From: a virus
Taxonomy: Duplodnaviria; Heunggongvirae; Uroviricota; Caudoviricetes
Strand: one strand, 5' to 3'
Length of the DNA stretch: 64,000 nt
Virus record (IMG/VR): IMGVR_UViG_3300025602_000002
Span: 38,718-102,717 of that record
Part shown: positions 5,288 to 61,028 of the stretch, one piece after another
Layout of the letters: each line of letters begins with the position of its first letter
Numbering within the stretch: the stretch's first letter is position 1
The notes under the pieces: generated by a model
What the model was told of the DNA's origin: nothing
Database searches by the model: none
What the model saw: the letters and a program-made list of their open reading frames with translations, nothing else
Position numbers and translations under genes: made by a program

Positions 5288-5321
5288 AAAAATTAATGGT
5301 TAATCGCTTCGCTTCATTATT

Positions 5322-5330
5322 CTTATACCA
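5322..5330 (-). promoter_or_regulatory. Extended -10-like promoter TGGTATAAG for the minus-strand operon
   Basis: TGnTATAAG upstream of the helicase start; identical copy at 48243-48251. Confidence 0.5.
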
Positions 5331-10941: not shown

Positions 10942-12060
10942 ATGACAGATCACGTATCACGAGCTATAAACGCTATACAAGATGAAATTAAAGGAAGTGT
11001 AAATAACCTTATTTCTCCATTTTTAAACGTAGGAAACCAACTATTAGGAACTCTTCTTCCAGATTTGGGTGTAGAAAAAACTTCACCTAATAACTTAGCT
11101 GAAGAAATAGAAAATATGACTGACGTTGGAGCAGTGCTTATGGTATACTCTAAAGACCCTGGAGAAGTAACTCATCGTTCTAATAAATTTTTCCTTCATT
11201 CCCTTAATTTTACATATAAAGAGAAGGCGCAATTAAATGAAACTTTTGATTCACCAGCTATTTCATTTTTTGGGGATTCAATAAGAATCTATAATTTTGC
11301 AGGAACAGCTATAGATTACGCAAGTGAAAGTGGGAGGGCTTGGGAACATTTTCATCAAAGTAGTTTAATAAAAATGTATGATGATATATTGCGCGGTACT
11401 AAATTAGTTCAAAATAACAGTATAGCCATTATGAAAATAATGAATCATACTATTTGGGGGTATCCTTTAAATTTTAGAGGCGGTTATAACGCTGCACAAG
11501 ATAAGGTAGCTAGCTTTTCTATGAGCTGAATAGTCTTAAAACACACCTTGACCTTTCCTAGTATAGTTACGGATGATAACTTAAAAACACTGTACACAAC
11601 AGTAGACGCAAGCGTAGATCAAGCTTACTTAAATAATATAAATAGTGTACTGGATAAAACAAATAAATTACTTATATTAAAAGAATACGATGTTAGTTTA
11701 GAGTCACTGCCTGATTTAGATCATATACCGTCAGCTTCTCTACAAAACCACTTAGAGGATCTAACGTCCTTAAATTTTTATGCGAAGGTTTCAGAAAATA
11801 TAAAAGCTTTACAAGATGATTATAAAAATAAGCTATCTGCCGGCATTTCCAATGTGTCAGCTGTATTGAGTACGCAATTTCCGGGTGGTTGAGATCAGAT
11901 AGACTCATTTTTTCAAGATTTAGGAAAATACTCTACTGGAGCATTTAGTACTGCGACAATTGATGAGAATGAATTTTTAAATTTTCAACTTTCTCTATTA
12001 ACTATTTTAGAAATAAAAAATAGATTAACAACTTTTAAAATACAAAACCTATTATCATAA
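10942..12060 (+). CDS. Putative tail/baseplate protein, 372 aa (TGA=Trp)
   Basis: Track ORFs 10942 and 11548 are in frame through 2 TGA; TAATG overlap with the next gene. Confidence 0.6.
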
Positions 12061-12776
12061 TGACTACTTTAAAACAAAAAGAATTAGAATTATTTAATCA
12101 ATATAGATCTGGCGACAATGAAGCTAGAACTAAATTATTAACCTCCCTTAAGCCTCTAATTAGGGGTCAGGCGAACAAATTTACTAATTCGGGACTTCCG
12201 CCAATGGCTATTGAGTTAGAGGCTCATAGGCTAGCTAGCGACTCTTTAAACACATATGATCCTAGCAAAGCTCAGTTAAATACTCATGTAACTAATTGAT
12301 TAAAGAAATTAAGTAGATTTGTTACTAATTATCAAAATGTTGGACATATACCAGAACCTAGAGCCTTAATTATAGGAAAGTATAATGCTATTTTTGATAA
12401 TTTAGAAGCTGATAAAGGTAGAGAGCCTACTATTACAGAGTTGGCGGATGCTATGAATTTGCCTCCAGTTGAAATCGAAAGACTACAAACAGAGCTTAGG
12501 AAGGATTTATCTATTTCTTTACCAGAGGATAAAGAGGATATAGGTGGCTTTTATTTTCATGCTAAACCTGGCAGTTTTAATAAATCAAAAGAAGCGTTGG
12601 AATTTACATACTTTGATGCTGATCCTATAGATAAAAAAATATTAGAATATACTTTTGGTATAGGTGGTCAGGGCATCTTAAGAAATAAAGATATTCAAAA
12701 AGAATTAAAACTAAGCGCTGCTAACTTAAAAAAACGAAAGGAAGAATTAGCTACTACTTTAGATAGTATCATATAA
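12060..12776 (+). CDS. Sigma-70-family RNA polymerase sigma factor, 238 aa (TGA=Trp)
   Basis: Region 2 LLTSLKPLI...YDPSKAQLNTHVTN(TGA)LKK resembles FDPxRGxKFSTYAxWWI; region 3 GREPTITELADAM; region 4 HTH-like C-terminus. Confidence 0.85.
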
Positions 12777-31932: not shown

Positions 31933-32029
31933 GGGTGCGTATTCCCATTTGGTTTATGGGAACGGTCTTCAAAACCGTATGCCGGGGTCCAAGCCGGTTA
32001 TGAGGGTTCGACTCCTTCCGTGCCTGCCA
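31933..32029 (+). tRNA. tRNA with UCA anticodon (opal suppressor / Sec-like), 97 nt
   Basis: Acceptor GGGTGCG/CGTGCCT, long D stem TTCCCAT/ATGGGAA, anticodon arm ACGGT-CTTCAAA-ACCGT (TCA at 31969-31971), 23-nt variable arm, T arm GAGGG-TTCGACT-CCTTC, G73, encoded CCA. Confidence 0.9.
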
Positions 32030-35288: not shown

Positions 35289-35765
35289 ATGTTAATAGAA
35301 GACTTACTAAAAATACCAGGCGTAATAGAGCCGGAAACTTTACATAAGCTTTTTCCTAAATTAAATAATTTAGAAAGACAGCAAGTGTTAGTAATAAAGC
35401 TTTTAAGGGAAACTAGACAGGCTTACGAAGACATGGATGTCTTTGAGAACGTATGTTTAGTACTTAATGGTATTAACCCGGATGTAGGTAAAACAGAAGG
35501 ATGCCTTCCTGAATTTATTTGGAAGGCTTTGGATATCATACAAAATATGCATCCTAATTTAGAACTTAGTTTTGAAGTGACTCAATATATTAAATTTATG
35601 TTTATAGATAATGGATATACCTTTTTCCACCCATTCGCTAATATAGACGATTCTATGCTTGACGTAGTAAAAGATAAAGCAGGCAGCGGGCCTTTTCCTC
35701 TTGAAGAGGATAGGTTGGGTATACAGGCTGCAAAATATTTAAAAATCATGGAGTACATTAAATAA
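35289..35765 (+). CDS. Hypothetical protein
   Basis: ATG 35289 preferred over track start 35253; coupled to the portal. Confidence 0.65.
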   Translation: MLIEDLLKIPGVIEPETLHKLFPKLNNLERQQVLVIKLLRETRQAYEDMDVFENVCLVLNGINPDVGKTEGCLPEFIWKALDIIQNMHPNLELSFEVTQYIKFMFIDNGYTFFHPFANIDDSMLDVVKDKAGSGPFPLEEDRLGIQAAKYLKIMEYIK

Positions 35766-37630
35766 TGCCAGTACGTTACTTAACAGAAAACGACATAGAT
35801 GAATATAAAGGTAAGAAGTACCCTAATCCATTTTTTGATTTATCACAGAATTTTTTACCAAGAAATATAAAAACGTTATTTAAGTTCTGTAAAACTTTTT
35901 ATTATACTAATGAAATTTTACGAAATGTTATTAGTAAGATGACTGAGTATCCTATAACGGATATTATATATGACACCTCTATTGAACCAGATATAAAAGA
36001 GCTATATGCTAAAGCGTTTAAAAAAGAAATACGCTTAAAGAATTTATTAATTGAAATTGGTTTAGATTACTATACTTATGGTAACTGTTTTGTATCTGCC
36101 TTTCTAAAGCAAAAGAGATTTTTAGCTTGTAATGTTTGTGGTACAGAGGCAGAAATAGCTTCTATGCGTGGGGTAAAATTAAAGAAATTTGTATTCCAGG
36201 CTATCTGTGAAAAGTGTGGGCACGAAACTCCAATGAATATTAAGGATGAACCTTTAACTACAATTAGTAGTTTAAAATTCGTTAGATGGTCTCCTGAAAA
36301 TATTGATATAGACTATAACCCTATATCAGGTAATGCTCGTTATTATTATGCAATGCCTAATAAGATTAAGCAAGGAATTTTAGTAGGGAACATGGCCATA
36401 CTAGAAGATATACCTGCAGTCTTCTTAGAAGCTTTAAAGAAAAAGAAAAAAATTATGTTAGATAACAATAATTTATATCATTTTAAAGCTCCTACTTTAG
36501 CAGAGGAAGATATGGGATGGGGCAAACCTCGTATATTAGCCGCTCTTAGACTAATTTATTACCAACAAACTTTAAAACGTGGTAATGAAGCGATAGCTAA
36601 TGACCATATTGTACCTAAAAAATTAATATCGCCAGCTAATACAGGCGCTATGGATCCTTATTCTATGATGAACTTAGGGAAATGGCGCGCTAATATTGAA
36701 GAGCAAGTTAAAAAATGGAGAAGCGACCCTAACCATGTAGGTATTTTTCCTATTCCAGTTCAATATCAAGAGCTTGGTGGAAATGCTAGATCTCTATTAT
36801 TAACTCCTGAAATGAAATTTTTAGAAGAAAACGTTATTAACAGTATTGGAGTTCCTGTAGAATTTATTAAAGGTGGAACTTCGTGGACTGGTTCTTCTAT
36901 TTCATTACGTATTGTAGAAAATGGATTCCTAACTTATAGAGAAGATATGTTAGATTTCATTAATTATTTTGTTATCGATAAGATAGTTACCTTATTAAAA
37001 TACCCTTCAATCGAAATTCAATTGAAGAAATTTAAGATGAGTGATGACTCTCAATCTAAACAATTATCATTACAATTAAATGAATTAGGAGCTTTATCTG
37101 CGTCTACACTTCTTCAAGACTTTGGTTATTCCGCTGTCGAAGAAGAGATATCTAATACTAAAGAAAATAGCGCAATGATTGATCAAGGAATTAAAAAAGC
37201 TATTAGAGAAGCCGAGGCTCAAGGCCAAGCTACTGTGATAATGACTAGGTATCAAGCTAGAGCGCAAAAAGCTGCTGAAGACGAGCTATTAAGATTAAGA
37301 GCTGAAGTTTTTGAAAAAGAACTTATGGAAGAAAATGCAGGCTCCCCAATTGACCCATATGAAGTTATAGAAAAATATGCTAAAACCCTAATGTTCTTTG
37401 GGCCAGAGGAACAAACTCAGGCTATACAGGAAATTAGTAAAACTGCACCAGTAACTGCAAACTTAGTTATGGAGCGTTTAAATTATTATATGCAAGCAGC
37501 AGAGGTTTCTGAAATTGGCGCCCAGGGAACTCAAACAGAGCCCAATCAAAAAACGCCTGGACAGCGTAATAGTAATAAGGTAAAAACTGGCCCGGAAAAA
37601 ACTAAAGGACAAACCAGAGGAACGCCTTAA
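35765..37630 (+). CDS. Portal protein with Zn-ribbon insertion
   Basis: YPNPFFDL N-terminus, VISKMTEYP, GxP.EF...G, CxxC...CxxC insertion; 621 aa. Confidence 0.7.
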   Translation: MPVRYLTENDIDEYKGKKYPNPFFDLSQNFLPRNIKTLFKFCKTFYYTNEILRNVISKMTEYPITDIIYDTSIEPDIKELYAKAFKKEIRLKNLLIEIGLDYYTYGNCFVSAFLKQKRFLACNVCGTEAEIASMRGVKLKKFVFQAICEKCGHETPMNIKDEPLTTISSLKFVRWSPENIDIDYNPISGNARYYYAMPNKIKQGILVGNMAILEDIPAVFLEALKKKKKIMLDNNNLYHFKAPTLAEEDMGWGKPRILAALRLIYYQQTLKRGNEAIANDHIVPKKLISPANTGAMDPYSMMNLGKWRANIEEQVKKWRSDPNHVGIFPIPVQYQELGGNARSLLLTPEMKFLEENVINSIGVPVEFIKGGTSWTGSSISLRIVENGFLTYREDMLDFINYFVIDKIVTLLKYPSIEIQLKKFKMSDDSQSKQLSLQLNELGALSASTLLQDFGYSAVEEEISNTKENSAMIDQGIKKAIREAEAQGQATVIMTRYQARAQKAAEDELLRLRAEVFEKELMEENAGSPIDPYEVIEKYAKTLMFFGPEEQTQAIQEISKTAPVTANLVMERLNYYMQAAEVSEIGAQGTQTEPNQKTPGQRNSNKVKTGPEKTKGQTRGTP

Positions 37631-38043: not shown

Positions 38044-38752
38044 ATCCTAGAAATTTATAAGAGTGCCCATCTAAATTAGGCGATAGGAAGGGATTTAAGC
38101 TCATTATATTAATATATGCACCATAGGCACCCCTTATACGTTTAACAGTGTCTAGCCCTATGTTTTCGTTGTTCTTCATCCATTTTACATAAGAGTCTTT
38201 GCTACCATAACGTTTATAGTCTTTATAATTCAATTTTCCATCTATACTGCCCAAATCATGGCCCACTAAAATAATATTATGAGCTCCCAAGTGAGCGGCT
38301 AAATGCATTGCTGTATGAGTACTACATTTAGTTATAGTTAGATATTCCTTATTAGTCCAATCTAGCTTTTTATTATTTACTCCTACATTATGTTGGTGTT
38401 TATAATAAAATAGCCTGTTGTACCTTTTTTCCTTAAATTCGGGAAATAGCTGCTCTTCTAATTTAACAAAAGATTTTGCAGTCTTCATCCCGCCCGCATG
38501 CTCAGGAATTATTAATTTTGGCCAGTCGTATAAACCAGACCCGGCTTCCTCAATTAGTTCTGAATTATAATCTTGCATAACTATATAATCGCATATGTCT
38601 ATAGTTCCGTAAGCCTTGTATGAAGCGTTTACACTTATGACAATTTTATCATTAAGGAATTGAGATTGTAGGTAATCAGCGGAAGGCCCTGAACATAATA
38701 TGTATATGTCTGAAGCTGCCTGCATACCTGATAATTTTTTAATATTTTTCAC
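38042..38752 (-). CDS. DUF115 / MptE-like (Maf-type) glycosyltransferase-like protein
   Basis: ILCSGPSA...ISVN, HLAAHLGAHNIILVGHD. Confidence 0.75.
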   Translation of the reverse strand: MKNIKKLSGMQAASDIYILCSGPSADYLQSQFLNDKIVISVNASYKAYGTIDICDYIVMQDYNSELIEEAGSGLYDWPKLIIPEHAGGMKTAKSFVKLEEQLFPEFKEKRYNRLFYYKHQHNVGVNNKKLDWTNKEYLTITKCSTHTAMHLAAHLGAHNIILVGHDLGSIDGKLNYKDYKRYGSKDSYVKWMKNNENIGLDTVKRIRGAYGAYINIMSLNPFLSPNLDGHSYKFLG

Positions 38753-40610
38753 TAGTCTTAAAAGTATGTCCTTCTAGGTTAAAGTTTATGAATGGATTCA
38801 AAGATGTAATATTTACACCATAATGTTTTATTAATTTTTCTTTTAAATTAAGAGTATGAGCTTCTATTGTTTTTAACCAATTAAGATACTTTTCATTAGT
38901 TCTTACTGACTCACCCCTTTTGGAAGTATTATATTCTTTTATTTCTGTAACTTCGTCTAAGGTACCACAATCATGGCCCACTAAAATAATATTTTTAGCA
39001 CCCATATAAGCCGCCAAGTGTATAGCTGTAGTGATAGTAGACTGGCTAACTATTAGTTTATCTAAGTTAAAGTCAAACTCTTCTGGGATTTCTATATTAT
39101 TTTCATTATGGAAATACCTAATTGAGTTTTCTAAATCTATTTGATTAAGTGGATGTCTAGAATGGCCTTCTCTAAAATTAGAGAATAATAAAGTTGCGTT
39201 AGTTTTTTCTGCATAATCTATGACTTCCGGATTAGGATCCTTTATTACTATATATTCTGGATTATCTATAGCATAAGCTGATTGGTTAACACAGATAGTA
39301 GTTTTATTATTAAAAAATTCTTTATCTATATATTCTACAGAAGCTCCGGAACCTAAAACCCAAACATCTTGATTCTTTTTTATATTCTTTAATTTGCATA
39401 ATTCTACAGGCGATTTCTCTAATGCTTTATCGCTAAAATAATTATGATAATTAGTTATATAAGGTTTATAGGTATAAAAATCTTTATGCCCACTTTCCAA
39501 AAATCGATCAAAATACCACCCATTCTGTAGGTATTTATGAGAAATACATTTTTCAAAATAAGCAATAAATTTCGGGTATACAGATTCTAAACTAAAATGT
39601 TTAATAGCCCAATCTCTACAATCTTGTGGGTCTATATCTTTAATATTTCTTATAGCATAAGTAAAATCTTCCCAGGTTCTTCCTCTAAAGCCTACAACTC
39701 CATGAGGAACTGTTTCTGTATAAACTCCCCAATCCGTGGTTACTACAGGCGTCCCAGACATTAGGCTTTCTATGTGCACGTTGCCAAACGGCTCTACATA
39801 TTTACTTAAACAAAAAGTAAGGGTTGCGTTAGCTAATAATTCTTTTTTTCTATCTCCAGCAGCAACGCCTACATATTTAATTAAACCTTCCTTATCTTTT
39901 AGTTTAGAAGAATCCCCATTGCCGGCCACATATAGTGTAGTTTTAAAATGTTTAGCCAATTGCACCGCTACATTCATCCCTTTAGCGTCTCCTAACCTTC
40001 CTAAGAAAAGAAAATAATCTTCTTTCTTCTTTTTAAATTCAAAATTTTTAGGATCAGTATACCCAGGAATAACTGAATGAAACCATTTGTTGGTGTCTAT
40101 ATACCCATTAACTCCATAGTAAGTATTCATCCAGGCGTTACTTTCAAAACATAAGTAGTCGGCAAAAGTAGATAAATAGCCTATACCATATTCTATGGTA
40201 GCTCCTATAGCTTTTAATTCTCCTAATTTTGGAGACCAATTTCCATATCCCACTAAAATAACGTCAGTTAAAATATCTTTAAAATTTTCTTTAACTTCTT
40301 CAATTAGTGTAGCTTCCGCATGTTTATATAACTTTGATTCGGGTTTATATAAATGGTCTTCAAAGGAAGTATTTGGATCTCTATTTTCACAATGTGTTTT
40401 CCACATCTCTTTTGAAATGTATTCTATATTTTTAGTACAAATCATTTCATTCCCCTCTACTCCATAATATATTACCTCGTGACCCTCTTCAGTAAACTTT
40501 TTACATAGAAGATACATTTTAGTAACGTAAGGATCTGTAGTTATATGTGGATCATTTATAATAACATTTTGATGCGGAGCACCAATCATATGTATTCTTA
40601 TTTTATTCAT
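38739..40610 (-). CDS. GT4-family glycosyltransferase fused to a DUF115-like domain
   Basis: FLFLGRL...KG, EPFGNVHIESLMSGTPVVTTD; C-terminal VLGSGAS...HLAAYMGAKNIILVGHD. Confidence 0.85.
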   Translation of the reverse strand: MNKIRIHMIGAPHQNVIINDPHITTDPYVTKMYLLCKKFTEEGHEVIYYGVEGNEMICTKNIEYISKEMWKTHCENRDPNTSFEDHLYKPESKLYKHAEATLIEEVKENFKDILTDVILVGYGNWSPKLGELKAIGATIEYGIGYLSTFADYLCFESNAWMNTYYGVNGYIDTNKWFHSVIPGYTDPKNFEFKKKKEDYFLFLGRLGDAKGMNVAVQLAKHFKTTLYVAGNGDSSKLKDKEGLIKYVGVAAGDRKKELLANATLTFCLSKYVEPFGNVHIESLMSGTPVVTTDWGVYTETVPHGVVGFRGRTWEDFTYAIRNIKDIDPQDCRDWAIKHFSLESVYPKFIAYFEKCISHKYLQNGWYFDRFLESGHKDFYTYKPYITNYHNYFSDKALEKSPVELCKLKNIKKNQDVWVLGSGASVEYIDKEFFNNKTTICVNQSAYAIDNPEYIVIKDPNPEVIDYAEKTNATLLFSNFREGHSRHPLNQIDLENSIRYFHNENNIEIPEEFDFNLDKLIVSQSTITTAIHLAAYMGAKNIILVGHDCGTLDEVTEIKEYNTSKRGESVRTNEKYLNWLKTIEAHTLNLKEKLIKHYGVNITSLNPFINFNLEGHTFKTSEKY

Positions 40611-41454: not shown

Positions 41455-43794
41455 CTAAACTTCTTTTAAAATTTTGAGTAAAGCTTCTCTTTTATCTTCC
41501 CATCTGAATTTAGTTTCAACATTCTTAATACACTCTAGATTAATATCCTTTTCTTTGTCGGATTCTTTCCATTTTTTGTATTCAATATCTAAAGCTTTCA
41601 TCATTTCAAAAGGGTCTACCACTGGGCGTAAATGCCCATTATCCATAGACATATTAAATATTGCTAAATTAGGTACTATATGCCCCGTGTCTCCTAACAT
41701 TTCAGGAATAGCGCTATTTTTTGGGGCTATACTTGGAGTACCTGTTGCTGCCGCTTCAATTAATGATAAACCACAATTATGGACAGTTACTTGAGCGCAG
41801 GTATATGATTCTCCATTAGGTACTTCTAAATCATAGCCTAAAAATTTAGGACTATTTGAAAATTCATCTGAAGAACTTATACTCTCAATAGGTAAATACA
41901 CAAACTCTTTATCCATCTCTATATTAGAATGAGAAGTTTGGTCAAACACTAACGTTATGATGTATTTGTAATTCTCTTCCCTAATAAAGCTTAATAGCCC
42001 TGTACTCAAATATAAGTCTCTTAACAAGTATGCAAACTCTTCAGACTTAACTTCATATGATAAAGTATTTTGTCCGTGAATTACATCAGACATTATACCA
42101 TTTAGTAACTCTCCCCTTAATTCTTTATCTAATGCTAAAAAATATGTAGGAATAGTTCTTTCTGATGCTTTTTCTCCAAATAGATGTCTAAATAATTTTA
42201 ATAAAGGTTTTGCTGCTATTCTAACATAGCCAGCTTGATCAGAATATGTACCATCATATGAACCTTCTACATTAAAATATTTATTAAATATATAATCAAC
42301 ATACTCAAATAATTCTGCTTTTCTATGTTTAAAATTAAACATTATACCTCTATCTGTTACATGCCCACATCCTAAGAAAATTCCAAAAAACTTTAAAATC
42401 TCCGCATTTATTGGTATGAACCTTTGCAAACTACTTCTTCGTTGTTTACTATTTATTTGGGTATCTGTTATTTCATAGTTAGGGTGTGGAAGTCCCATAT
42501 CTGCTAAGTCTATTTGTGTTGGAATTTTATTTTTCCATTTAGGACGTCGTAAAGCTACTATGTCTCCGACGTTCAATAGTTCCGCACGCTTATAACTTTT
42601 ATCTTTTAATAAAAAAGGATGATCGTGAGAACAAAGAATTGGTTTTGAAAACACATCCATAGTTATGGAATATATTTTTCCATCAAAAGGAGTTCCTAAT
42701 GTTTTCTTTACTTTCGACCAATTACCCTCGTCATTTATTACTTCATCTTCAGGGGTAACATGCTCTATTCGTTTATACCCATCTCTACATAAAATTAAGG
42801 TGCCTTCGTTTAGTTTTCCTTCCCCTATTGTAGAAGATATATTAATATTTGAGGCATTATAAATTTTGTTAATTTCTGAAGAAGGTACTTCACCGCTGTA
42901 TATATTCCTAGCATTTACTCCTAGTATAGTATCGTCCCCATCAGTGTCGCTATCTACAAATCCAGCATTTAATAAGTGATTCTGTAATAAGTTTGCGGCT
43001 CCTGGCCCCATAGTCATTTCTGCTGACATCATATGTAAATACAAATAAACGTCCCGTCTATTCCTTTTAACTACTTCTACAATATCACTTTCAGGACACA
43101 TATTTAAATCGCATTTTTTACGATTAATAGGCATATGATTTCCACATTTACAAACTTTGTACCCTTTTGCAAACATACTGAAGGCTCGTGCAGTTCCGGG
43201 TATAAACTTCCGTGGTTGAAATCTATTAACATTACAAACAGCAAACTTATTTGCCCATTTATAGTCTTTTCTTATTTCTTGGATTTTATCGTAAGGTAGT
43301 GGATAAAAAGTAGTTTCGTTTACACCATGGTATAATTTGTGTATAGGTATTTTGATCTCGTAAGTATCTTTTAAAATTTCAATTGCCCAATCTGTGTAAG
43401 CTACTACTGCTGAGGAATGCTCAAATATTTTCTGCCATCCCACGCTAGGAGGTGTACCGTCTATAGGGAAATAAGATACTATCTTAGTATTTGGTAATAC
43501 TTTTTTTAATTCGGGAATGATTTCTGAAATATGGAAGATATCTTGAAATAAGAATATTACGTCAGGCTTTTCTGCTTGTGCAAGGGCACACAGTTTCTGG
43601 CCGCCCAGGGGATCTTCTTTAGTTACAGGGTATACGAAATATTTAGAAGTATCGTATTTAGTATTTCCAAAGTAGTTTATACCTAGTATAGATACTTCAT
43701 AATAATTGTGTAAATCTTTAAATAAGTTTTCAGCTACTATTCCGAACCCCGTCGGTACTAAAAAATCACTCCAGATAAATAATTTAGGTTTCAT
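41455..43794 (-). CDS. GT4-family glycosyltransferase containing an intein
   Basis: TGFGIVA, NVNRFQPRK; extein STIGEG|CGLSLIEAAATGTP restores the EGxGLxxxEA motif. Confidence 0.85.
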   Translation of the reverse strand: MKPKLFIWSDFLVPTGFGIVAENLFKDLHNYYEVSILGINYFGNTKYDTSKYFVYPVTKEDPLGGQKLCALAQAEKPDVIFLFQDIFHISEIIPELKKVLPNTKIVSYFPIDGTPPSVGWQKIFEHSSAVVAYTDWAIEILKDTYEIKIPIHKLYHGVNETTFYPLPYDKIQEIRKDYKWANKFAVCNVNRFQPRKFIPGTARAFSMFAKGYKVCKCGNHMPINRKKCDLNMCPESDIVEVVKRNRRDVYLYLHMMSAEMTMGPGAANLLQNHLLNAGFVDSDTDGDDTILGVNARNIYSGEVPSSEINKIYNASNINISSTIGEGKLNEGTLILCRDGYKRIEHVTPEDEVINDEGNWSKVKKTLGTPFDGKIYSITMDVFSKPILCSHDHPFLLKDKSYKRAELLNVGDIVALRRPKWKNKIPTQIDLADMGLPHPNYEITDTQINSKQRRSSLQRFIPINAEILKFFGIFLGCGHVTDRGIMFNFKHRKAELFEYVDYIFNKYFNVEGSYDGTYSDQAGYVRIAAKPLLKLFRHLFGEKASERTIPTYFLALDKELRGELLNGIMSDVIHGQNTLSYEVKSEEFAYLLRDLYLSTGLLSFIREENYKYIITLVFDQTSHSNIEMDKEFVYLPIESISSSDEFSNSPKFLGYDLEVPNGESYTCAQVTVHNCGLSLIEAAATGTPSIAPKNSAIPEMLGDTGHIVPNLAIFNMSMDNGHLRPVVDPFEMMKALDIEYKKWKESDKEKDINLECIKNVETKFRWEDKREALLKILKEV
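41776..42816 (-). mobile_element. Intein (347 aa) with degenerate LAGLIDADG endonuclease and Lys as first residue
   Basis: Starts KLNEGTLILCRDGYKRI, block B CSHDHPF, ends YDLEV...TVHN/C. Confidence 0.85.
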
Positions 43795-43899: not shown

Positions 43900-45340
43900 T
43901 CGGAGTATTCCGATATTTTTAATAACCTTTTCCCAGATTATACTAGAATTTTGGCCGGAGCGGCGGGCAAATCTAGTATACTAGTATACCATTTTGGGGA
44001 CGGGATTTCCTGAAGCGCTCTGAAGGCTGTGCGGCCTAAACGGCATCAGCTCGATCTGAGGTAGGCTTCGAAATCGTGGACGTCTCGGCACGCGAGCTCA
44101 TCCGGGCCCCGGGGGCCTTGTTGGCCAGTGGGCCGGCTGGATGAATTCACCACCATGTGGTTCTTCTGTCGACGGAGCGATCGCCGATGACGGTCGCGGT
44201 CGCCAGCTGTTGACCGGTCGGTATGATCACGTAGATCTGGATGATGACGACGCGGCGAGTAGCAGGCCTACCAGTTGTCAGCATCTTCCTTAGTTAACGG
44301 CCATCATTTTCTACGGCGTCTTCTTTACCAGGTACCCTGGCGGACTGGGCCGGGCGGCAGGTGGGAGGAACCTTTTCGAACACGTGTCCAATTTGAGATC
44401 CGGATCCGGTGTCGGCGTACGCGTCAGCTGCTGCTGCAGTACTCTTCCGGAGGCGCCGCCGTCGGGCTTGATTCGAATTAGTCTGGAAAGGATAGTAAAC
44501 CGAAAAATGGAAATCCCAGAAAAAAGAAAATGTACTTGAAACACGGGGGACCTGTGGTAAAACGCTGGTAGGGAGCGGACCTTTCTCAGGGCCGTTCGCT
44601 ACCCGGTTTTACCCGTGGTCGCTCCGTTGTTTCATGTATCACTTTTCTTTTTGGGCGTTTTCATTTTGTTTACTTTCTTTCCATTTAAGTTCGAATCGGG
44701 TTATTTTTCTGCAAGGACGTAACATCCTTGTACAACGCTGCAAGCAAGTGCGTTTTTTTTGCGATTTCTCACACGTACCGATGATTTTACTGTTATAAAA
44801 TCTTCGGGACGACGTTCCTGAGATCCGAGAGAATGATTTTCGTGGCCAAAACGGTTCTCCGTAGTCATTCCATCATTTTTGGGGGTTAAAAACTTCCAAG
44901 TTGTTAACGCACAAAATGTGGAATACGGTGGAGACTGTTCTGGCGTATCGAAAAGCATTCTCGAGGTCCCGAAGGTCCGTTGTGTTTGGTTTTTGTTAAC
45001 CTACTACGTAGCCGAAACAGCCACGCCGTCTATTTTGTATAGACTTTCAACTAAGAAAGCAGATAAGGAAAAAATCCCTACCTAACACACTTTTGAAATT
45101 TTGTATATAGAGTCCCCACAACTCTTACTAGTTCCCATTCTGATTCCTTCGTTAGTCTAATAAGGGAACTTGAAGTAAATCTCCGTGGTCATAAGTGTTT
45201 AACCCTCTGGATTAAACAGTTTTAGCTCGGGGATTTGTTAGTTTGGGGTATTATTAGTTTTTTCCGTGTCCGAAGCAGACACGACATTTATACTACGAGG
45301 ATCGTTGATATAAATACAGCTAAGAGTTGTGAGGAAGAAT
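43900..45340. other. 1.4-kb non-coding island, GC-rich core, rich in palindromes and hairpins
   Basis: No credible ORF; core lines are 53-68% GC by hand count against an AT-rich background; 29 palindromic hexamers in 44067-44478. Confidence 0.8.
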
Positions 45341-46488: not shown

Positions 46489-46638
46489 TATTAACTGTCA
46501 CTTGAGTTGTCGCTAGGTTCTTCGGTTGTCAAATCAATAACTTTGGTTTCTGCTAATAGGATTGCAATTTTTGCAAAAGCTATTATTAGCATCAGTCCAA
46601 TTGTTTTGCCTAGCTTGACGTCCATTTCTTTTAGTGCC

Positions 46639-47529
46639 TCATACTACATTCATTTTAGCTATTTCATCTATAAATTTTTGCCCTTGTTCAGGATTTAAAA
46701 ATCTAATCCATTCGGCATAACCTCTTAATTGCTGGTATTCCCTTTCTGTTATGTCGACGTTTCGTTTTTGATGTAAAATAGCTCTAAATATTTTTCGTTT
46801 ATATTTTGGAATACCGTATTTGTCGTTTATTACGATTCCAGTTACTGACATCCGTCTATGCGGCCTCATAATTCTAGTCTTTTTGTAATTTAGTTTAAAA
46901 TGATATTTTTGTACCATTTTGGTAATTTCTATTATATGATCCAAAAGCGGATAGCGTTTGGAGAGATGACTAAAACTAATATCGTCAGCGTATCTAGTAA
47001 CTATTAGTTTATTTTGTTTTGCAAAGTCTTGTAAATCTATATCCATTTTGTAACATACTAAATTAGCCATAGCCGGACTCGTAGGAGATCCTTGCGGTAA
47101 TGCCCCATTTAGCGTAATTAAAGACGTAAGTAGTCTTGCGTCTGCTTCATCCCATTCAAGGGTGTGTTGGTTATTATAACTATGAAGCCTCTTAATCATT
47201 TCAGGTAAAACCATGCTAGCTGTTACAGAATCGAAAAAACCTCTTAAATCTATATTTAATAAAGTCTTATTTCCAAAATGTCGTTTAGCACCTTCTTTTA
47301 CGCTGATATTACGTCTAAACCCTACCGCTATCGGGTGGGTCTTAAATTTATATAAGAAATTATTTAAAAACTTTGTTTGAACTTGTTTTAAAGCCTCAGA
47401 CGGCTCATTAAGCCACCTTAATTTTCCAGACTTTTTTGTAATCGGGAACCTTCTATACTGCTTTATTTTAGTAGTTACTAATTGTTCTATTTCAGTTTTT
47501 GGTGTTTCTATTAATTCGTAAATTGTCAT
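46639..47529 (-). CDS. Retron-type reverse transcriptase
   Basis: KKSGKLRW...P, GFRRN...GAKRH (region X-like), IDLRGFFDSV, LPQGSPTSP, TRYADDISFS, VTG (region Y). Ends at TGA. Confidence 0.85.
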   Translation of the reverse strand: MTIYELIETPKTEIEQLVTTKIKQYRRFPITKKSGKLRWLNEPSEALKQVQTKFLNNFLYKFKTHPIAVGFRRNISVKEGAKRHFGNKTLLNIDLRGFFDSVTASMVLPEMIKRLHSYNNQHTLEWDEADARLLTSLITLNGALPQGSPTSPAMANLVCYKMDIDLQDFAKQNKLIVTRYADDISFSHLSKRYPLLDHIIEITKMVQKYHFKLNYKKTRIMRPHRRMSVTGIVINDKYGIPKYKRKIFRAILHQKRNVDITEREYQQLRGYAEWIRFLNPEQGQKFIDEIAKMNVV

Positions 47530-48012: not shown

Positions 48013-48193
48013 ATAGCGTGTATTTTTTTTATTTTATTTAGTCTTTTGGTGGAGTAAATATTTCGTCATTTGCGTTCTCATTCTCTCCATCTGTAATTCT
48101 TTTTCTTGCATTAAAAAATATCAAGCTCTTGAATATATAAATTGGGATGAACATTTTGCTCAAACCTCCCTTGACTCTTAACCTACTTTGCTT

Positions 48194-48202
48194 TATATTT
48201 AA
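48194..48202 (+). promoter_or_regulatory. Candidate phage promoter TATATTTAA upstream of the RNAP gene
   Basis: TTGCTTTATATTTAA 68 nt before ATG 48270. Confidence 0.45.
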
Positions 48203-48242
48203 AGACAAAGTTTAAAATGCAGATAGGTTCTTCATCTAACTT

Positions 48243-48251
48243 CTTATACCA
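48243..48251 (-). promoter_or_regulatory. Extended -10-like promoter TGGTATAAG for the RT operon
   Basis: Identical to 5322-5330, same TTTT(T/A)TGGTATAAGAA context. Confidence 0.5.
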
Positions 48252-48269: not shown

Positions 48270-51200
48270 ATGGCAGATTTATTAAATTACAACAAACAGA
48301 ACTCAAATATCCAACAGGCTATCCTAAAGTCTATAAATAACGTTTTTCCAGTCACCGCCGGTGATAGAACTCTAGAAATAGCTAATTTAAAAATAGTTGA
48401 CAATCTTAGTTCTGACGATTTCCCTAAACAGAAAGAGTTAAAAATCAATAGGCGTAGCTGACAAATACCTTTATACGCTGATATACTTTTAAAAGATAGC
48501 ACTGGAAAAGTTATTAACCAAAAAAAGAATGCTAAGATAGGAAATATCCCTAAATTAACAAATAGGTTTACTACTATTATTGAAGGAAATGAATACCAAA
48601 CCGTTAATCAACTTCGAAGAAAGCCGGGTATATATGCTCGTATTAAGAAGAATGGTGAGTTAGAAAATGAATTCAATTTAGAAAAAGGTCTTAATTTTAA
48701 AATGCAATTAGATCCTATTTCTGAAAAATTTGTAGTTATTTTCGATAATAGAAAATATAGACTCTGAACTTTATTAAATTTATTAGGTGTAGGCGATGAG
48801 GCTATGCGTAAGGTTTGGGGTACCAAACTATTAGAAGTTAATAAGAAGAATGCTCTCAACACAGAAATTTCTGAAATGACTTCTATTTTCACTAAAATTT
48901 ATCATAGAGATCCTAAAGACTACTCAGAAGTTCTTACCAAATTAAAAGACTATTTTGAAAACTTCACTAAAGTAGACCCCAACACTACCCTCTTAACTTT
49001 GGGTCGAAAACACTCTAATGTTAATGGACAAGCTTTACTAGACTCTTCTAAGAAATTATTAGATATTAATAAAGGTACAGCAGAACCAGATGACAGAGAT
49101 AGTTTAGTTTTTAAACAAATTTTATCAGTAGATGACTTACTTATTAATCATTTTGATAAACAAAAAGACTCTCTTACTAAAAAATTACGATCATCTATGA
49201 TGTTCAAAGATCAAGTACGAGAAATAGTAAGTGCTGGTACTTTTTCAAAACCTATTAAACTATTTTTTACTACTGGCGATTTAAGCTCAACTCCTCCACA
49301 AACAAATCCTGTAGCTATTGTATCCGAATGAAGAAAAACCTCTCCTATGGGTACTGGTGGAATAAAAAGTAAGCACTCAATTACTGAAGAAACTAGGGAT
49401 GTACAGCCTACACACTTAGGGTTTATAGACTCTACAGCTTCTCCAGAAGGTTCAAAAATTGGAGTAACTTTAGGAATGACCTCTGAGGTTGTTAAAGAAG
49501 GTAATGAGCTGAAATCTCCAGTATATAATACTTCTGGTAAACTAGTATATATTAGTCCTTTAGAATTCTTTGAAAGTTATGTAGTGTACCCAGATCAATA
49601 TGAAATATCTGGCTCTACTATTACTCCTAAATTTAAGTCAATACACGCAATGTATAAGGGTGAACTTATACGTATTGCCCCAAGTAAGGCTAATTATTAT
49701 ATAAGGTCTCCAAGATCAATGTTTTCTTTTGCCGCTAATGCTATTCCATTTTTAGACGCAGTTCAGGGTAATAGAAGTGCTACTGGTGCTCGTATGATGA
49801 CTCAAGCTATGGCTTTAGATAATAAAGAAGCTCCTTTAGTACAAACCTATAGAGATAAAGATTCTACTTATGAAAAGATTCTTGGTAATTTTCTTAATCC
49901 AGTATACGGACCTAATTTAAAAGGGAAACCTCGTACTGGAACAGTTAGTAAAATTACTAAAGATTATATTTATATCATTGGAAAAGATGGATCTAAAACT
50001 AAAAAAGGTTTATATAACAATTTCCCATTAAATCAAGATGGTTATTTAGATTCTACTCCTTTAGTAAACGTGGGAGATGAGGTTAATAGTAAAACTATAT
50101 TAGCTGAAAATAATTATTCCAGTGGAGATACCCTGTCTATAGGAAAAAATTTAACTACAGCCTATATGACTTATAAGGGTTATAATTATGAAGATGGCGC
50201 TGTAATTACAGAATCAGCTGCTAATAAACTTTCTCATTCTATGCTCCATAAAGTAAATGTATTTTTTACTCCTAAATTATCTGCATTTAGTTTAGAAAAA
50301 TTTAGTGCCTGGTACCCAGACGCTATAACCCCAGATAATAGAAAAAAATTAGATAGCTCTGGTATTATTAAGGTAGGAGAAACAGTTAATCCAGAAGATG
50401 TATTAATTGCATTTTTAGTTAAGCGTGAAATGGACGACCATGAGGTAGCTTTACATAAATTAAGTAAATATACTTTTGGACAATTTAATAAAAATTTAAC
50501 TGAATGGTCTGAAGATGAGCCGGGAGTGGTAACTGATGTAGTTAAGACTGGTAGAAACATAGATATTTATGTTAAATCTACCCATCCTTTTAAAGAAGGT
50601 GATAAACTTTCTGGGCGTTATGGTAATAAATCTATTGTTACTAAAATTATTCCAGACGCAGATGCCCCTCATAGAGAGGATGGTACCCCTATTGACATAA
50701 TGTTAAATGCTCATGGAGTTCCTTCTCGTATGAACATTGGTCAAATTTTAGAGACGGCAGCTGGTAAAATTGCTAAAAAAACTGGTAAACCTTATATTGT
50801 TAAGAATTTTAATAATCCAGAAGGTGACAGATCTGCAGAAGTTTTAGCAGAAATGAAAGAACTTGGTATAGAACCTGATGAAACTTTAACAGATGGTAAA
50901 ACTGGCAAAGCTTTTGATAATCAAATTTTTGTAGGACAACAGTATTTTTTCAAACTTCGACATATAGTCAACAAAAAATTAGGGGCTCATGGTATCGGCC
51001 AATATGATATAGACGAACAGCCTGTAGGAAAGGGTTCACAGCATGTAGGGATTTTAGATAATTATGCATATCTGGCCCACGGAGCAAAAGCCAATTTACG
51101 AGATATTGGAGAGATTAAAGGAAGGTCTAACGATGAATACTGAAGAGACCTACAATTGGGACTGCCGCCTAGTAAGCCTTCTAGAAACTTTGTATTTGAA

Positions 51201-54200
51201 AAGCTAACAACCTATATTCAAGGTCTAGGTGTTAATGTTACTAAAAAAGGTAATAAACTACAAATTTTACCATTAACTGACAAAGATGTTACTAAGCTGT
51301 CTAATGGCGCATTAGAAAAGCCAGGAACTATGTTAGTTGGTAAAAATTTAATGACTAGAGCCGGTGGATTATTCGATGAAAAGATTACTGGTGGAATTAG
51401 CGGCACGTTATGGTCTCATATTAATTTAGCAACTAATTTACCTAATCCTATGTTTGCTCCTGCAATTACTAAAATATTAGGTATTACTGACAAGAAATAT
51501 AGCGACATTATAGATGGGAAATTAAAGCTAAAAGGTAAGTCTGGAATTCCGGCTATTATCTCTGCTTTAGAAGCCTATGATGTTGACGCTGAGCTTGTTA
51601 AGGCTACAGCAGCTTTAAAAACTGCCCCTGTATCCTCGGTGAATAGTTTAAATACTAAGGTTAGGTATCTACAAAATTTAAGTAGAATGAAATTAAACCC
51701 AAAAGAAGCCTATACTATTACTAAAATACCAATATTACCTCCTAAATTTAGACCTATCTATTCTTTACCTACTGGTGATTTAATGACTAGCGATATCAAT
51801 AAACATTATAGAGATATTGGGGTTATAAACACAGCTTTAAAAAGTACTAAAGATATTATAGGCGCAGATGAGGTTTTAAGAGCTAATAGATCATTGTATG
51901 ATTCTGTAAGAGCTATGCAAGGTTTTATAGAACCTATAACCTATGGCGGTGAAAAGTATAAAGGGATTTTAGAAGAAATAGGAGAAAGTAAAAAAGGCTT
52001 AATACAAGGAAAATCCTGGGGCAAGCGTCAAGACTTAAGTGCTCGAAGTACTATCATTGTTGACCCCGATTTAGGTCTAAATGAGGTAGGTACTCCATTT
52101 AAAATAGCTTATTCTATTTATAAACCTTTTATTATAAAGAATTTAAAGGAATTTGGATTAAAAGCTACAGCCGCAGTAAGGGAATACAAAGATGAAACTG
52201 ATTTAGCAAAATCAGCTCTCGTTGATGAAATGAAACGTAGACCCGTAATTATGAACAGAGCTCCTACACTTCATAAGCATGGAGTTCAAGCTTTTAAACC
52301 TCAATTAGTAGATGGTAAATCTATTAGAATGAATCCTCTTGTTATGAGAGGTTTCAACGCTGATTTTGACGGCGATACTATGTCTGTAATGGTACCTGTT
52401 TCTGCTGAATCTGTAGAGGAAGCTAAAAACATGATGCCTAGCAAGATCTTATTTAAGCATGGAGATAACTCTATTGTTCCAGAGATTAGTAAAGAATATG
52501 TTTTTGGAATACACCAGCTAAGTCTTATTAAAGAAAAATCTAAAGAATCTTTTAAATCTATTTCTGACGCTAAAAAAGCCAAAATTCCATGGACTACTCA
52601 GTTTGATCTTAACGGTACAAAAGTGACTATAGGGCAGTTTTATATTAATTCTGAATTACCTGAAAAATTAAGGGATTACGAACGAGTATTAACTGCTAAA
52701 GTGTCTGAAAAACTTTTAACCACTATCGCAACTACTTACCCTAATTATTTTACAGATGTAATTAATTCTTGGAAATCTTTAGGAGCTATGCAGGCCACTT
52801 TACATGGCAATACCTTATCATTAAATGACTTTGTAATAGATAGAGCCTATAGAGATGATCTTTTAAAAGAAAAACTTCCTGCAATTAATAAATTAAAAGG
52901 GCAGACTAGAATTGACTCTTTAAACAAATTAACTATAGAAGTTCAAAAAGCTCAGGATAAAAGTGTACGGGGTAGAAATAACATCTACGACATGTTGGAT
53001 TCAGGCTCATTTGGTAAAACTGATTCTGTACGACAAATTTTATCTATGCCTGGGGTTCTAATGGACACCAAAGGCCGTCCTATCCCCTATCCTGTGTTAA
53101 AATCGTATGGAGAGGGTTTAGATACCCCTTCTTATTTTGCGTCCTTATATGGAGTTCGTAAAGGTAATATTGACAGGTCCGTAAATACAGAGCAATCTGG
53201 TGCTTTAAACAAAGCGTTATTAAACATTAATAGACGTTTGTTAATAACTGTAGAAGATTGTAATACTCGTAAAGGTTTAGAAATTGGCGTAAATGACAAG
53301 AATGTTATAGATCGCATGTTACTTAACTCTGTATCGGGTGTGGGGAAAAGAAATGACATTGTAGATTCAAATGTTTTATTAAGAGCTAAAAAGGATAAAT
53401 TAAAAACTCTATGGGTTAGATCGCCATTAACTTGCGAAGCAGTTGAAGGGATTTGTCAAGCCTGTTATGGGTTAATGCCTAATGGAAAATTATCTGTATT
53501 AGGAGAAGCGGTAGGAGTATTAGACGGACAGGCCATTACCGAAAGATCTACACAATTAGTTATGCAAACTTTCCATACAGGGGGAACTGCCTTAGGTGGC
53601 GGTGGTGGTGGTGCTGTAACTGGTTTCCCACGTTTAAAACAATTATTTTTTGTACCTCAAAAATTAAGTGGAAAAGCTACGTTATCTACTGTAAAGGGGA
53701 CTATAAAATCTATTAAGAAAAATCTTACTGGAGGGTACTCCGTTAGGATAGAGGGTTATGGGGAAAAGAATGATAAAACCTTTACTATACCTTCCGGTAG
53801 ACTGCCTATTGTAACAGAAGGAGTTAAAATAGGAATTGGAGACGCCATATCTGATGGAATTATAAAACCTCAGGAACTTGGAGAATTAAAGGATCACTTA
53901 TCAGCTCAGAAGTATTTAGTAGAAGAAGCTTCAAAAGTTTATGGGGGAAAATTCTTTAATAAAACATTTGAAACCGTAATTCGTGGAATTAGTGATAATG
54001 CCCAAATTACAGTAGCTCCTGAGGGTAGCGGATTCCTAAGAGGAGATAGAACTACTATAAGTTATTTAAACGCTCTAAACAAAGATAGAAAAAAAGAAAA
54101 ACTTCCATTAATCGAATATGACGCATATTTTAAATCAATAGACTCATTAAATGCTGATAGCGACGATTGGTTAACTAGAGTTAGTGCGAACAGAGTAAAA

Positions 54201-54329
54201 CGGGGCTTAACTGTAGGAGCTGCAAAAGGCTTATGAGCTAACATTCGAGGTAAAGACCCTGTACCAGCGTTCATTTATGGAGATAACTTTGGTAAAAACA
54301 CTAATTATCAAAAGGGGGAATTCTTTTAA
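48270..54329 (+). CDS. rpoBC: Fused beta/beta-prime multisubunit-type RNA polymerase, 2019 aa, 5 in-frame TGA
   Basis: Four track ORFs share one frame. Beta motifs GDKLSGRYGNK, GVPSRMNIGQILE; beta-prime motifs GKRQDLSARS, NRAPTLHK, FNADFDGDTM, TQLVMQTFHTGG; TAA at 54327. Confidence 0.92.
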
Positions 54330-54833: not shown

Positions 54834-55556
54834 ATGCAACACAACTCTCAAGACTGTAGTAATAAACACCAAGCATTACGACAATTGCACCATTTATTTT
54901 TTTCTTCAAAATCTTCTCCTGTAAAATTAGGGGATTTGAAATTTTTAACTAAAGCTCAGGAAAAATTTTATAAAGCTATGGAGAAGAAAACAATAATTTT
55001 CTCAAAAGGTCCTGCAGGTACAGGTAAGACTCATTTATCAGTGCACTTCGCTTTAAAACAATTAGCAGATAAAGAATCTCCTGTCGATGGAATAGTAATT
55101 TGTAAACCTTTAATTTGCGTAGATAATGAAAAATTCGGATGATTAAAGGGGGGTATGAAAGAGAAAACTGATCCTTTTATGAACCCATATTGGCAAAAGT
55201 TTGAAAAAATAATTGGGAAACAAATAACAGATATTTTGGAAACCACTGGTATTATTAATATTGTGGTACCAGCTTTTTTAAGAGGTATGGAATTTGAAAA
55301 CAAAGTAGTTTTATATGACGAATCCCAGAATTCCTCTTGTACAGCTATGAAGACCTTTTTAACTAGATTAGGAAGAGATTCTAAAATGATTATAACTGGA
55401 GATCCAAAGCAAAGTGATAAGGATGATATCAGCGGTTTAGAAGACGCCATGGCACGTCTATCCAAAATAAAAGATATTACTACTGCAAACTTTACCAGGG
55501 AGGATATTGTTAGGCACGGCTTGATACGAGAGATATTAGACTGTTACGAAGACTAA
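54834..55556 (+). CDS. phoH: PhoH-family ATPase, 240 aa, 1 in-frame TGA
   Basis: GPAGTGKT; EKFG(TGA)LKG at the LGFLPG motif; FLRG, DESQN, FLTRLG, GDPKQSD. Confidence 0.92.
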
Positions 55557-58145: not shown

Positions 58146-58180
58146 AATTTGTTTTTTTCCTTATTTGGTTAATTCGGGTG

Positions 58181-58551
58181 TGGAGGTGGGGAGAATCGAA
58201 CTCCCGTCTTAACATGGTCCATATCAGGTCATTCACATGCTTAGTCTAGTTTGCTAGTTAAGGTCATCATTCTTGACAAATTGTACCTCGCTCCTTTAAT
58301 GTTTGTCGTAACCCCCGTAAGTCGTTTGGGACGGTGCGTCTGGATTATTCGTCCCACAACACTTGGACTATCCGATAAATGATGCCTATTTAACTATCGG
58401 AGTCAATAAATAGACATTAACGAAATCGTAGAGGTTAGTCTACGCCGCTAATTTAACTGCTGGTCTGCCAGTTATTTTGTTTTGATTGCTTAGCCAATCA
58501 CTCTGCGTGCACCTGTATACTTGTCCATACTAATCGAAACCGGGCACCCCC
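58181..58551 (-). ncRNA. ssrA: tmRNA, tag (A)GRPAVKLAA
   Basis: 5' GGGGGTG...TTCGA; AAAATAACT then GGC AGA CCA GCA GTT AAA TTA GCG GCG TAG; 3' GGGAGTTCGATTCTCCCCACCTCCA; G3-U70 pair; CCA not encoded. Confidence 0.92.
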
Positions 58552-60572: not shown

Positions 60573-60659
60573 TGTGCGTTCCTTGTAACCCCTTTCGTGA
60601 TTACATGTTTTTTTTGTTAATTAAAATAATTGCTTATAATATATCCATTGCTAGAGTTC

Positions 60660-61028
60660 TTATACCAAATGTATGAAGGTTTTAACACCTAGAGATCTAG
60701 CTAATCCCCCTAGTTTGATAGGATTCATAACTTTGTTATGTACAAAATATAATAAACAATCTGAGTGTTCTAACATTAGAACATCTCTTTTGTATCCTGC
60801 GCTTGTATCAAAATAATTATGAGAAGTACTCCTCCATCGTGGATATAACCGAAGGTAATTAATTCCACGTCGTGCTGCGTATTCCGCGATATCTTTTGAA
60901 CTCTTTAAATTTCCCATTATTAAAAGCTGGGATAATTTAAACTTAGAGCTCTTAAACGCTTTTTCAATAGTTTCCATAGGGATCCTTTCAGTTAAAAACC
61001 GTTGAGATCCCGCTACTGTTATTATCAC
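60660..61028 (-). CDS. SLOG/YspA-like (DUF2493) protein
   Basis: IITVAGSQ...AGYKRDVLMLEHSD. Confidence 0.5.
   Translation of the reverse strand: MIITVAGSQRFLTERIPMETIEKAFKSSKFKLSQLLIMGNLKSSKDIAEYAARRGINYLRLYPRWRSTSHNYFDTSAGYKRDVLMLEHSDCLLYFVHNKVMNPIKLGGLARSLGVKTFIHLV

What the first reader, a model, noticed from the sequence alone, without database searches (positions are those of the whole stretch)
48270..54329. Single-polypeptide fused beta/beta-prime RNA polymerase lacking the beta-prime N-terminal Zn-binding domain
Seen: the beta C-terminal-like segment (FVFEKLTTYIQGLGVNV) runs directly into the beta-prime N-terminal-like segment (LQILPLTDKDVTKLSNGALEKPGTM) within one standard-code ORF, so the fusion does not depend on recoding. 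GGLFDEKITGG runs straight to WSHINL with no clamp Zn cysteines, while the second Zn site (EDC...RSPLTC...CQACYG) and NADFDGD are intact. At 2019 aa it is much shorter than bacterial beta plus beta-prime; no alpha gene is visible in this window. Established: phage multisubunit RNAPs are usually split; beta/beta-prime fusions are known in a few bacteria. Inference: a minimal fused enzyme working with the phage sigma.
Basis: partly seen in the sequence, partly recalled or inferred. Interest (0 to 1): 0.75.

Follow-up and report, generated by a model that had tools for sequence, protein, structure and literature searches.

The report
Single-chain phage RNA polymerase, likely virion-packaged
A large uncultured phage encodes both big subunits of a bacterial-type RNA polymerase as one protein, which is made only when the phage reads the stop codon TGA as tryptophan; it is probably packed into the virus particle with its own sigma factor to switch on the first genes in the next host.

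Summary
The fusion is real, but the 2019-aa frame (window 48270-54329, +) is not a standard-code ORF: it needs five TGA read as Trp, one 16 codons before the beta C-terminus. An independent assembly is identical over all 6060 nt, and over 100 relatives (33-61% identity, mostly standard code) keep the same junction and lack the clamp Zn finger. Catalytic residues and the second Zn site are intact; no alpha or omega is encoded. The enzymes form one clade (100/100) with Salmonella phage Arash and Vibrio phage D69, outside the sampled mReC group. Best reading: a virion-packaged early polymerase. The gene is TGA-recoded like structural genes and has a late-type promoter; its partner sigma (window 12060-12776) is the orthologue of Arash gp10; Arash RNAP and gp10 are abundant in particles; and GGTATAAGA occurs 20 times on the opposite, mostly TGA-free strand, never on this one (Arash GGTATAAG 30:1). 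Who reads late promoters, and whether host alpha is needed, is open. I found no paper describing this system; this scan has reported the family, motif and Arash link before on other genomes.

The parts
48270..54329 (+). Fused beta-beta' RNA polymerase gene, 2019 aa with TGA=Trp (5 TGA)
48270..51245 (+). beta-like part (about residues 1-992): lobe, fork, flap with tip helix, barrel with K779 and K787
   Evidence: HHalign to Salmonella RpoB
51141..51143 (+). TGA = Trp958, 16 codons before FVFEKL; column is Trp in 67 of 70 relatives
51225..51269 (+). beta/beta' junction, a two-strand hairpin in the model, ungapped in 70 relatives
51363..51428 (+). Site of the missing clamp Zn-binding domain (Salmonella beta' 67-98 absent)
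52356..52376 (+). Catalytic NADFDGD (D1365, D1367, D1369 invariant)
53253..53471 (+). Second Zn site, C1664, C1722, C1729, C1732
53568..53585 (+). Trigger loop TFHTGG (H1769); SI3 insert absent
48171..48199 (+). Predicted late-type promoter of the RNAP gene, TTGACT-N17-TATATT
   Evidence: same pattern 7 on +, 1 on -; inference
48242..48250 (-). GGTATAAGA, predicted early promoter, facing the late promoter
   Evidence: inference
5321..5329 (-). GGTATAAGA, 42 nt before a helicase gene
60658..60666 (-). GGTATAAGA, predicted early promoter
12060..12776 (+). Divergent sigma factor (238 aa, one TGA = Trp80), orthologue of Arash virion sigma gp10; predicted partner
31933..32029 (+). tRNA with TCA anticodon, candidate TGA decoder (97 nt, long variable arm)
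35765..37630 (+). Portal gene; near the RNAP gene in 51 of 82 related loci

Best explanation
A single-chain, bacterial-type two-barrel RNA polymerase that is made late in infection, packed into the head with its own sigma (window 12060-12776), injected, and used to transcribe the early, non-structural genes on the opposite strand from GGTATAAG promoters (one -10-like element, no -35; start predicted at a purine about 6 nt downstream). Shown: fused frame, TGA=Trp, intact catalytic residues, no alpha/omega gene, family-wide sigma, two strand-specific motif classes. Inferred: packaging in this phage, which enzyme reads which motif, and that the TTGAC-N17/18-TATATT promoters of the structural strand (including this gene's own) are read by host core enzyme with the second, conventional phage sigma (genome C1:7697-8512) or host sigma70. 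Because its gene needs TGA read-through, new enzyme cannot be made until the code switch, so any early use must rely on a copy brought in the particle.
For: TGA aligns with Trp in relatives (28 of about 46 genome-wide). Plus-strand genes use 90 TGA to 88 TGG; three minus-strand blocks (54 genes) use 0 to 179; the RNAP's 5:9 differs from those, p 1e-6. Arash particle proteome: Gp206 128 unique peptides and the most spectra, Gp216 40, sigma Gp10 24, against 2 each for primase and ligase; the other sigma Gp196 is not listed (PMC10585845). Window sigma is the reciprocal match of Gp10 (33.8%, E 7e-30) in matching gene order; the minus-strand sigma matches Gp196. GGTATAAGA: 20 on minus, 0 on plus, 1.3 expected; opposite the RNAP strand in relatives 21:0, 25:0, 7:0, 5:0, 8:1; GGTATAAG 29:0 in G008 and 30:1 in Arash, no excess in three mReC-type contigs, YerA41 or RHph_Y65. 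Clamp helices lack the bacterial sigma contacts R275, R278, E295 and the partner sigma lacks the usual region 2.2 signature, which the second sigma keeps. Predicted complex of a standard-code relative's pair: 0.70, best control 0.00; the mark was reached by 58 of 80 solved and 2 of 110 mismatched pairs; runs agree in at least 72% of contacts, partner pLDDT at least 75; RNAP-sigma is a textbook pair, so the pass may rest on likeness to solved holoenzymes. Gene lies near portal (51 of 82 loci) and terminase (41 of 82).
Against: No transcript, proteome or activity data for this phage. The Arash preparation also held many non-structural enzymes and its authors allow carry-over; Arash is only 30% identical and splits beta' further on. 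The exact motif is not enriched in D69 or in most deeper relatives. The strand rule has exceptions: a minus-strand sugar-enzyme cluster uses TGA (15:27) and a plus-strand block with the portal has none (0:11). The second sigma lies on the structural strand in Arash and G008. The flap-tip helix is kept, so the phage enzyme could also use the second sigma.
Confidence: 0.62

Rival explanations
1. Packaged as above, but the same enzyme later swaps to the second sigma and also reads the TTGAC/TATATT promoters, making the phage independent of host RNA polymerase with a single enzyme.
For: Only one RNAP is encoded; flap-tip helix kept; Arash particles carry much enzyme; rifampicin-pocket residues are replaced.
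Against: The second sigma keeps the bacterial core-binding signature while the phage clamp helices have lost its contacts; the late motif is sigma70-like with the conserved last T.
Confidence: 0.2
2. A non-virion enzyme for middle or late transcription; host RNAP reads GGTATAAG as an extended -10 promoter and the presence in Arash particles is carry-over.
For: The motif resembles TGnTATAAT; Arash preparation contained non-structural enzymes.
Against: The motif ends in G where sigma70 promoters keep T (established knowledge) and is identical between a Salmonella phage and unrelated environmental phages; the gene and its sigma are themselves TGA-recoded and behind a late-type promoter; peptide counts match true virion proteins.
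Confidence: 0.1
3. (Independent of timing) the fused chain still borrows host alpha, and perhaps omega, to assemble.
For: Motifs that touch alpha in bacterial RNAP (from memory of the structures) are conserved: P800 invariant, G805 and G879 near-invariant, and the beta' helix at Salmonella 525-541 has a counterpart. Nearest folds are bacterial beta.
Against: No alpha in this genome or 25 relatives; beta' 542-557 is deleted; phiKZ and AR9 enzymes work without alpha (PMC7598289); an injected enzyme gains from needing no partner.
Confidence: 0.35
4. Sequencing or assembly error, pseudogene, or two proteins split at TGA958.
For: Five stops under table 11; databases list the pieces as separate genes.
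Against: Independent assembly identical over 6060 nt, fragment on record in 47 blocks; 79 of 82 related loci give a long single frame in table 11; apparent split relatives are TGA-recoded or frameshifted.
Confidence: 0.02

Closest known systems
Salmonella phage Arash Gp206+Gp216 with sigma Gp10 (OQ632216; PMC10585845); Vibrio phages D69, D148, D181
   Same: Same clade (100/100); same beta/beta' junction and no clamp Zn; shared capsid, portal, terminase, SNF2 helicase and both sigmas; GGTATAAG on the non-structural strand in Arash.
   Different: They split beta' after the catalytic barrel (1525+606 aa) and use the standard code; here all is one chain and TGA-recoded. The paper calls Gp206 'beta' and describes neither fusion nor promoter.
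mReC phage RNAPs (Weinheimer and Aylward 2020, PMC7481178)
   Same: Phage-encoded, alignable to bacterial RpoB/RpoC, compact; one of the two mReC-type enzymes also lacks the clamp Zn finger.
   Different: All listed mReC have separate beta and beta' genes, often two sets; different capsid and terminase families; no orthologue of the partner sigma; separate clade.
phiKZ/AR9 virion RNAP (PMC7598289, PMC7824862, PMC13282480)
   Same: Works like it by inference: packaged, injected, early genes, no alpha or omega gene.
   Different: phiKZ enzymes are split into 4-5 chains, come as a virion and a non-virion pair and have no recognisable sigma gene; matches are weak (PHROG E 1e-10 to 1e-25 against 1e-86 to 1e-106 for bacterial-like models).
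crAss-like gp66, P23-45 and YonO single-chain two-barrel RNAPs
   Same: One polypeptide with both barrels (crAss) and virion delivery (PMC7481178, PMC10770324).
   Different: Those are barely alignable to RpoB/RpoC; this one is about 30% identical to bacterial subunits along its length and has a sigma70-family partner.
Fused RpoBC of Helicobacter and Wolbachia (from memory)
   Same: Head-to-tail beta-beta' fusion at the natural contact of the two termini.
   Different: Cellular, full length, keep the clamp Zn finger and need alpha; not tested here.

Membership tests
Two-barrel multisubunit-type RNAP | beta' DxDGD triad and beta barrel lysines | tested here: met
   D1365/1367/1369, K779, K787 invariant
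Two-barrel multisubunit-type RNAP | Bridge helix, trigger loop, second Zn site, fold | tested here: met
   model pLDDT 87.7, pTM 0.75; best folds bacterial beta
Two-barrel multisubunit-type RNAP | DNA-dependent RNA synthesis | not testable with these tools
   no assay
Bacterial RNAP | alpha2 and omega genes | tested here: not met
Bacterial RNAP | beta' clamp Zn-binding domain | tested here: not met
   beta' 67-98 absent; no Cys column in 70 relatives
Bacterial RNAP | Nested within bacterial RpoC | tested here: not met
   bacteria 96/99 to the exclusion of the fused clade
mReC | Separate beta and beta' genes | tested here: not met
   against 11, 59
mReC | RNAP falls in the mReC clade | tested here: inconclusive
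   Not nested: mReC-type a+b 99/97 without it, fused+mReC in 0 of 1000 bootstrap trees; a sister relation is not rejected (AU p 0.41). Only two paper-listed contigs sampled, beta' only.
mReC | Capsid PF07068 and terminase PF03237 | tested here: not met
   capsid no Pfam hit, terminase PF05876
phiKZ-like RNAPs | Subunits split into 4-5 chains, two RNAP sets, no sigma gene | tested here: not met
   one fused gene, two sigmas
Arash-like fused RNAP clade | Fused junction, no clamp Zn, Gp10-type sigma, monophyly | tested here: met
Virion RNAP (functional class) | Present in particles and active before phage protein synthesis | not testable with these tools
   indirect only: Arash proteome, recoding class

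The most novel reading that the evidence does not exclude
A complete promoter-specific transcription machine of two proteins, one fused beta-beta' chain and one sigma70-family factor, needing no alpha or omega, injected from the particle and reading a single 8-base promoter, with its synthesis gated to late infection by stop-codon reassignment; the hallmark of a large unnamed phage lineage.
Probability: 0.45. Interest if true: 0.85.

Novelty: new variant of a known kind. Interest (0 to 1): 0.7.

Why it matters
If it works without alpha, this is the simplest known enzyme that is still clearly bacterial in sequence and uses a true sigma factor, so it would show directly what alpha, omega and the clamp Zn finger are needed for. 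It marks a widespread phage lineage (about 150 or more clusters at 50% identity) with a transcription plan unlike T4 or phiKZ, and a cultured Salmonella phage makes it testable now. A one-gene polymerase with a short private promoter and a replaced rifampicin pocket could also be a laboratory tool. In this genome the recoding gives a rare sequence-level clock for when the enzyme is made.

Tried and rejected
Table 15 (TAG=Gln) does not join the frame. A search for shorter, naturally split relatives found only TGA-cut or frameshifted pieces among those checked. No second RNAP, RF1/RF2-type or TrpRS-type gene in the genome. FastTree put the clade as sister to bacteria with full support; IQ-TREE with a mixture model did not (6.5% of bootstraps), so I make no claim on its origin. 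The AU test under the mixture model did not finish; the one reported used LG+G4 on 31 rows. My automatic code calls were wrong for many loci (they merely extended ORF ends); I used the table-11 column only. I did not model alpha binding: a textbook pair would pass by likeness. Literature searches and two 2026 reviews gave no description of the fusion; the library lacks most subscription papers, and the main paper on phage stop-codon recoding was not held. The neighbouring reverse transcriptase is not a diversity-generating retroelement by my search.
Full report
Observation. Under table 11 the region 48270-54329 is not one ORF: the frame has TGA at codons 64, 166, 354, 958 and 1989 and yields pieces of 175, 598 and 1026 aa. 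With TGA=Trp it is one 2019-aa protein carrying Rpb2 and Rpb1 domains in order. The window lies in a 205,518-bp phage record rated 97% complete.

TGA is Trp. In 70 relatives the columns of codons 64, 354 and 958 are Trp in 65, 55 and 67 rows; 166 is aromatic. Genome-wide, residues of a standard-code relative aligned to TGA are Trp in 28 of about 46 cases, much as for TGG. A TCA-anticodon tRNA sits at 31933-32029. TGA still ends several minus-strand genes (ATGA overlaps), which suggests a standard-code host and a switch during infection (inference).

Not an error. An independent ENA assembly is identical over all 6060 nt and the 1026-aa piece is on record in 47 blocks. More than 100 homologues at 35-61% identity were listed, most as single proteins of 2005-2075 aa or longer with inteins; 79 of 82 IMG/VR loci give one long frame in table 11; of the best 150 clusters at 50% identity most place the beta' half about 960-1030 residues into a 2000-aa or longer chain. 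The junction aligns without gaps. In the model of residues 470-1460 (pLDDT 87.7, pTM 0.75) the end of beta and the start of beta' form a hairpin; best structural matches are bacterial beta subunits.

Anatomy against Salmonella RpoB/RpoC. Kept: beta D814, K1065, K1073, R1106, H1237, flap tip; beta' R352, R425, N458, D460/462/464, bridge helix, trigger loop H936, four Cys of the second Zn site. Absent: beta 232-355, 934-1047, 1128-1192 (mostly lineage inserts); beta' 67-98 (clamp Zn domain), 126-150, 542-557, 949-1154 (SI3). Rifampicin-pocket residues 513, 516, 526, 529 and 572 are replaced, so resistance is likely (inference). No alpha or omega here and no alpha in 25 related genomes. Among phage loci from a beta' search, none of 43 fused enzymes had the clamp Zn motif while 25 split ones did.

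Kinship. On beta' the fused enzymes, with Salmonella phage Arash and Vibrio phage D69, form one clade (100/100); the mReC-type sequences, including two contigs listed in PMC7481178, form another (99/97); bacteria a third; their order is unresolved (AU p 0.41 for fused+mReC). All mReC in the paper's table have separate beta and beta' genes, and capsid and terminase here do not hit the mReC Pfam families. Arash Gp206 and D69 gene 261 keep the junction but end after the catalytic barrel, with the rest of beta' in a second gene. This phage shares capsid (35%), portal, terminase and SNF2 helicase with Arash.

Two sigmas. One (window 12060-12776, plus strand, one TGA) sits among baseplate genes and is the orthologue of Arash Gp10; the other (C1:7697-8512, minus strand, no TGA, intact regions 2, 3 and 4) matches Gp196. 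The first is found in 21 of 29 family records, 7 of 8 near-complete IMG/VR ones, and not in mReC-type contigs, YerA41 or RHph_Y65. Its region 2.2 has diverged, as have the enzyme's clamp helices, while the second sigma keeps the bacterial signature. A cognate pair from a standard-code relative scored 0.70 against 0.00 for the best control, with clamp helices on region 2.2 and flap tip on the C-terminal region; the mark was reached by 58 of 80 solved and 2 of 110 mismatched pairs, runs agree in at least 72% of contacts, partner pLDDT at least 75, and a textbook pair can pass by likeness.

Two promoter classes. GGTATAAGA occurs 20 times on the minus strand and never on the plus strand (1.3 expected each), mostly just before minus-strand genes, with a T-purine step 13-14 nt from its first base that looks like a start site. 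It is strand-specific, opposite to the RNAP gene, in five close relatives, in G008 and in Arash (30:1), but not in D69 or most deeper relatives. TTGAC-N17/19-(T/C)ATATT occurs 7 times on plus and once on minus, six between genes, one of them 99 nt before this gene; the same bias holds in two relatives. Before the RNAP gene the two promoters face each other (48171-48199 plus, 48250-48242 minus), so early transcription could hold the gene off (inference).

Timing. Plus-strand genes use TGA as often as TGG (90:88); three minus-strand blocks with 54 genes use none (0:179); exceptions are a minus-strand sugar-enzyme cluster (15:27) and the portal block (0:11). The RNAP and its sigma belong to the recoded class. 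In Arash particles Gp206 is the most detected protein, with Gp216 and Gp10, and Gp196 is not listed; the authors leave carry-over open (PMC10585845).

Mechanism and verdict. The simplest reading is a packaged enzyme-plus-sigma for early genes, with host core and the second sigma for late genes (0.62); a sigma swap on the phage enzyme (0.2) and a non-virion role (0.1) remain; need for host alpha is a separate open point (0.35). It works like a phiKZ virion RNAP but is not a member of that family, and fails two of three mReC tests. I found no paper on the fusion, the sigma pairing or the promoter. This scan has reported the family, the motif and the Arash link on other genomes; I found the motif and the Arash evidence before reading those notes, and they are not independent support. 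What this genome adds is the recoding evidence for late synthesis of both proteins. New variant of a known kind; interest 0.7.

Noticed in passing
window 46513-47529 (-) and 44470-44697: Reverse transcriptase with a small upstream gene and a 228-nt imperfect hairpin downstream; no template/variable repeat pair found, so not a DGR; homologues lie beside the RNAP gene in 9 close relatives. Retron-like element?
   Followed up: partly
window 31933-32029 (+): The TCA tRNA is 97 nt with a long variable arm and scores as tRNA-Sec in Rfam, yet TGA aligns with Trp; no TrpRS or release factor gene was found. What charges it is unexplained.
   Followed up: partly
G000:C1:105393-105469 (-): tRNA with CTA anticodon (amber suppressor-like) although TAG appears to be a stop in this genome.
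   Followed up: no
L090:3257-5446 (G000:C1:151256-153445, +): 729-aa protein of no known family whose homologues lie just downstream of the RNAP gene in about 60 of 82 related loci; candidate co-packaged partner. Not folded.
   Followed up: partly
L091:4869-6269 (G000:C1:176868-178268, +): SNF2 helicase, 33% identical to Arash Gp217, which follows the beta' gene and is abundant in Arash particles.
   Followed up: partly
G000:C1:21000-31600 (-): Cluster of apparent sugar-modifying genes that uses in-frame TGA although on the otherwise TGA-free strand; possibly late, for virion or DNA decoration.
   Followed up: partly
L171, L176, L177 against L135: mReC-type phages carry two enzymes, one without and one with the clamp Zn finger (both on one contig for L176 and L135), suggesting repeated loss of this domain in virion-type enzymes.
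   Followed up: partly
window 58178-58551 (-): Phage-encoded tmRNA.
   Followed up: no
window 41455-43794 (-): Glycosyltransferase with an intein, next to a glycosyltransferase-MptE-like fusion at 38739-40610.
   Followed up: no
window 54834-55556 (+): PhoH gene, also split by one TGA, two genes after the RNAP.
   Followed up: no
window 26236-30141 (+): 1301-aa collagen-like tail fibre with 15 TGA.
   Followed up: no
L180: A 204-kb relative (56% RNAP identity) is binned in a Bacteroidales MAG; weak host hint only. The identical assembly L099 has a record name beginning HAWL17, which I read from memory as the Saanich Inlet series; not checked.
   Followed up: no
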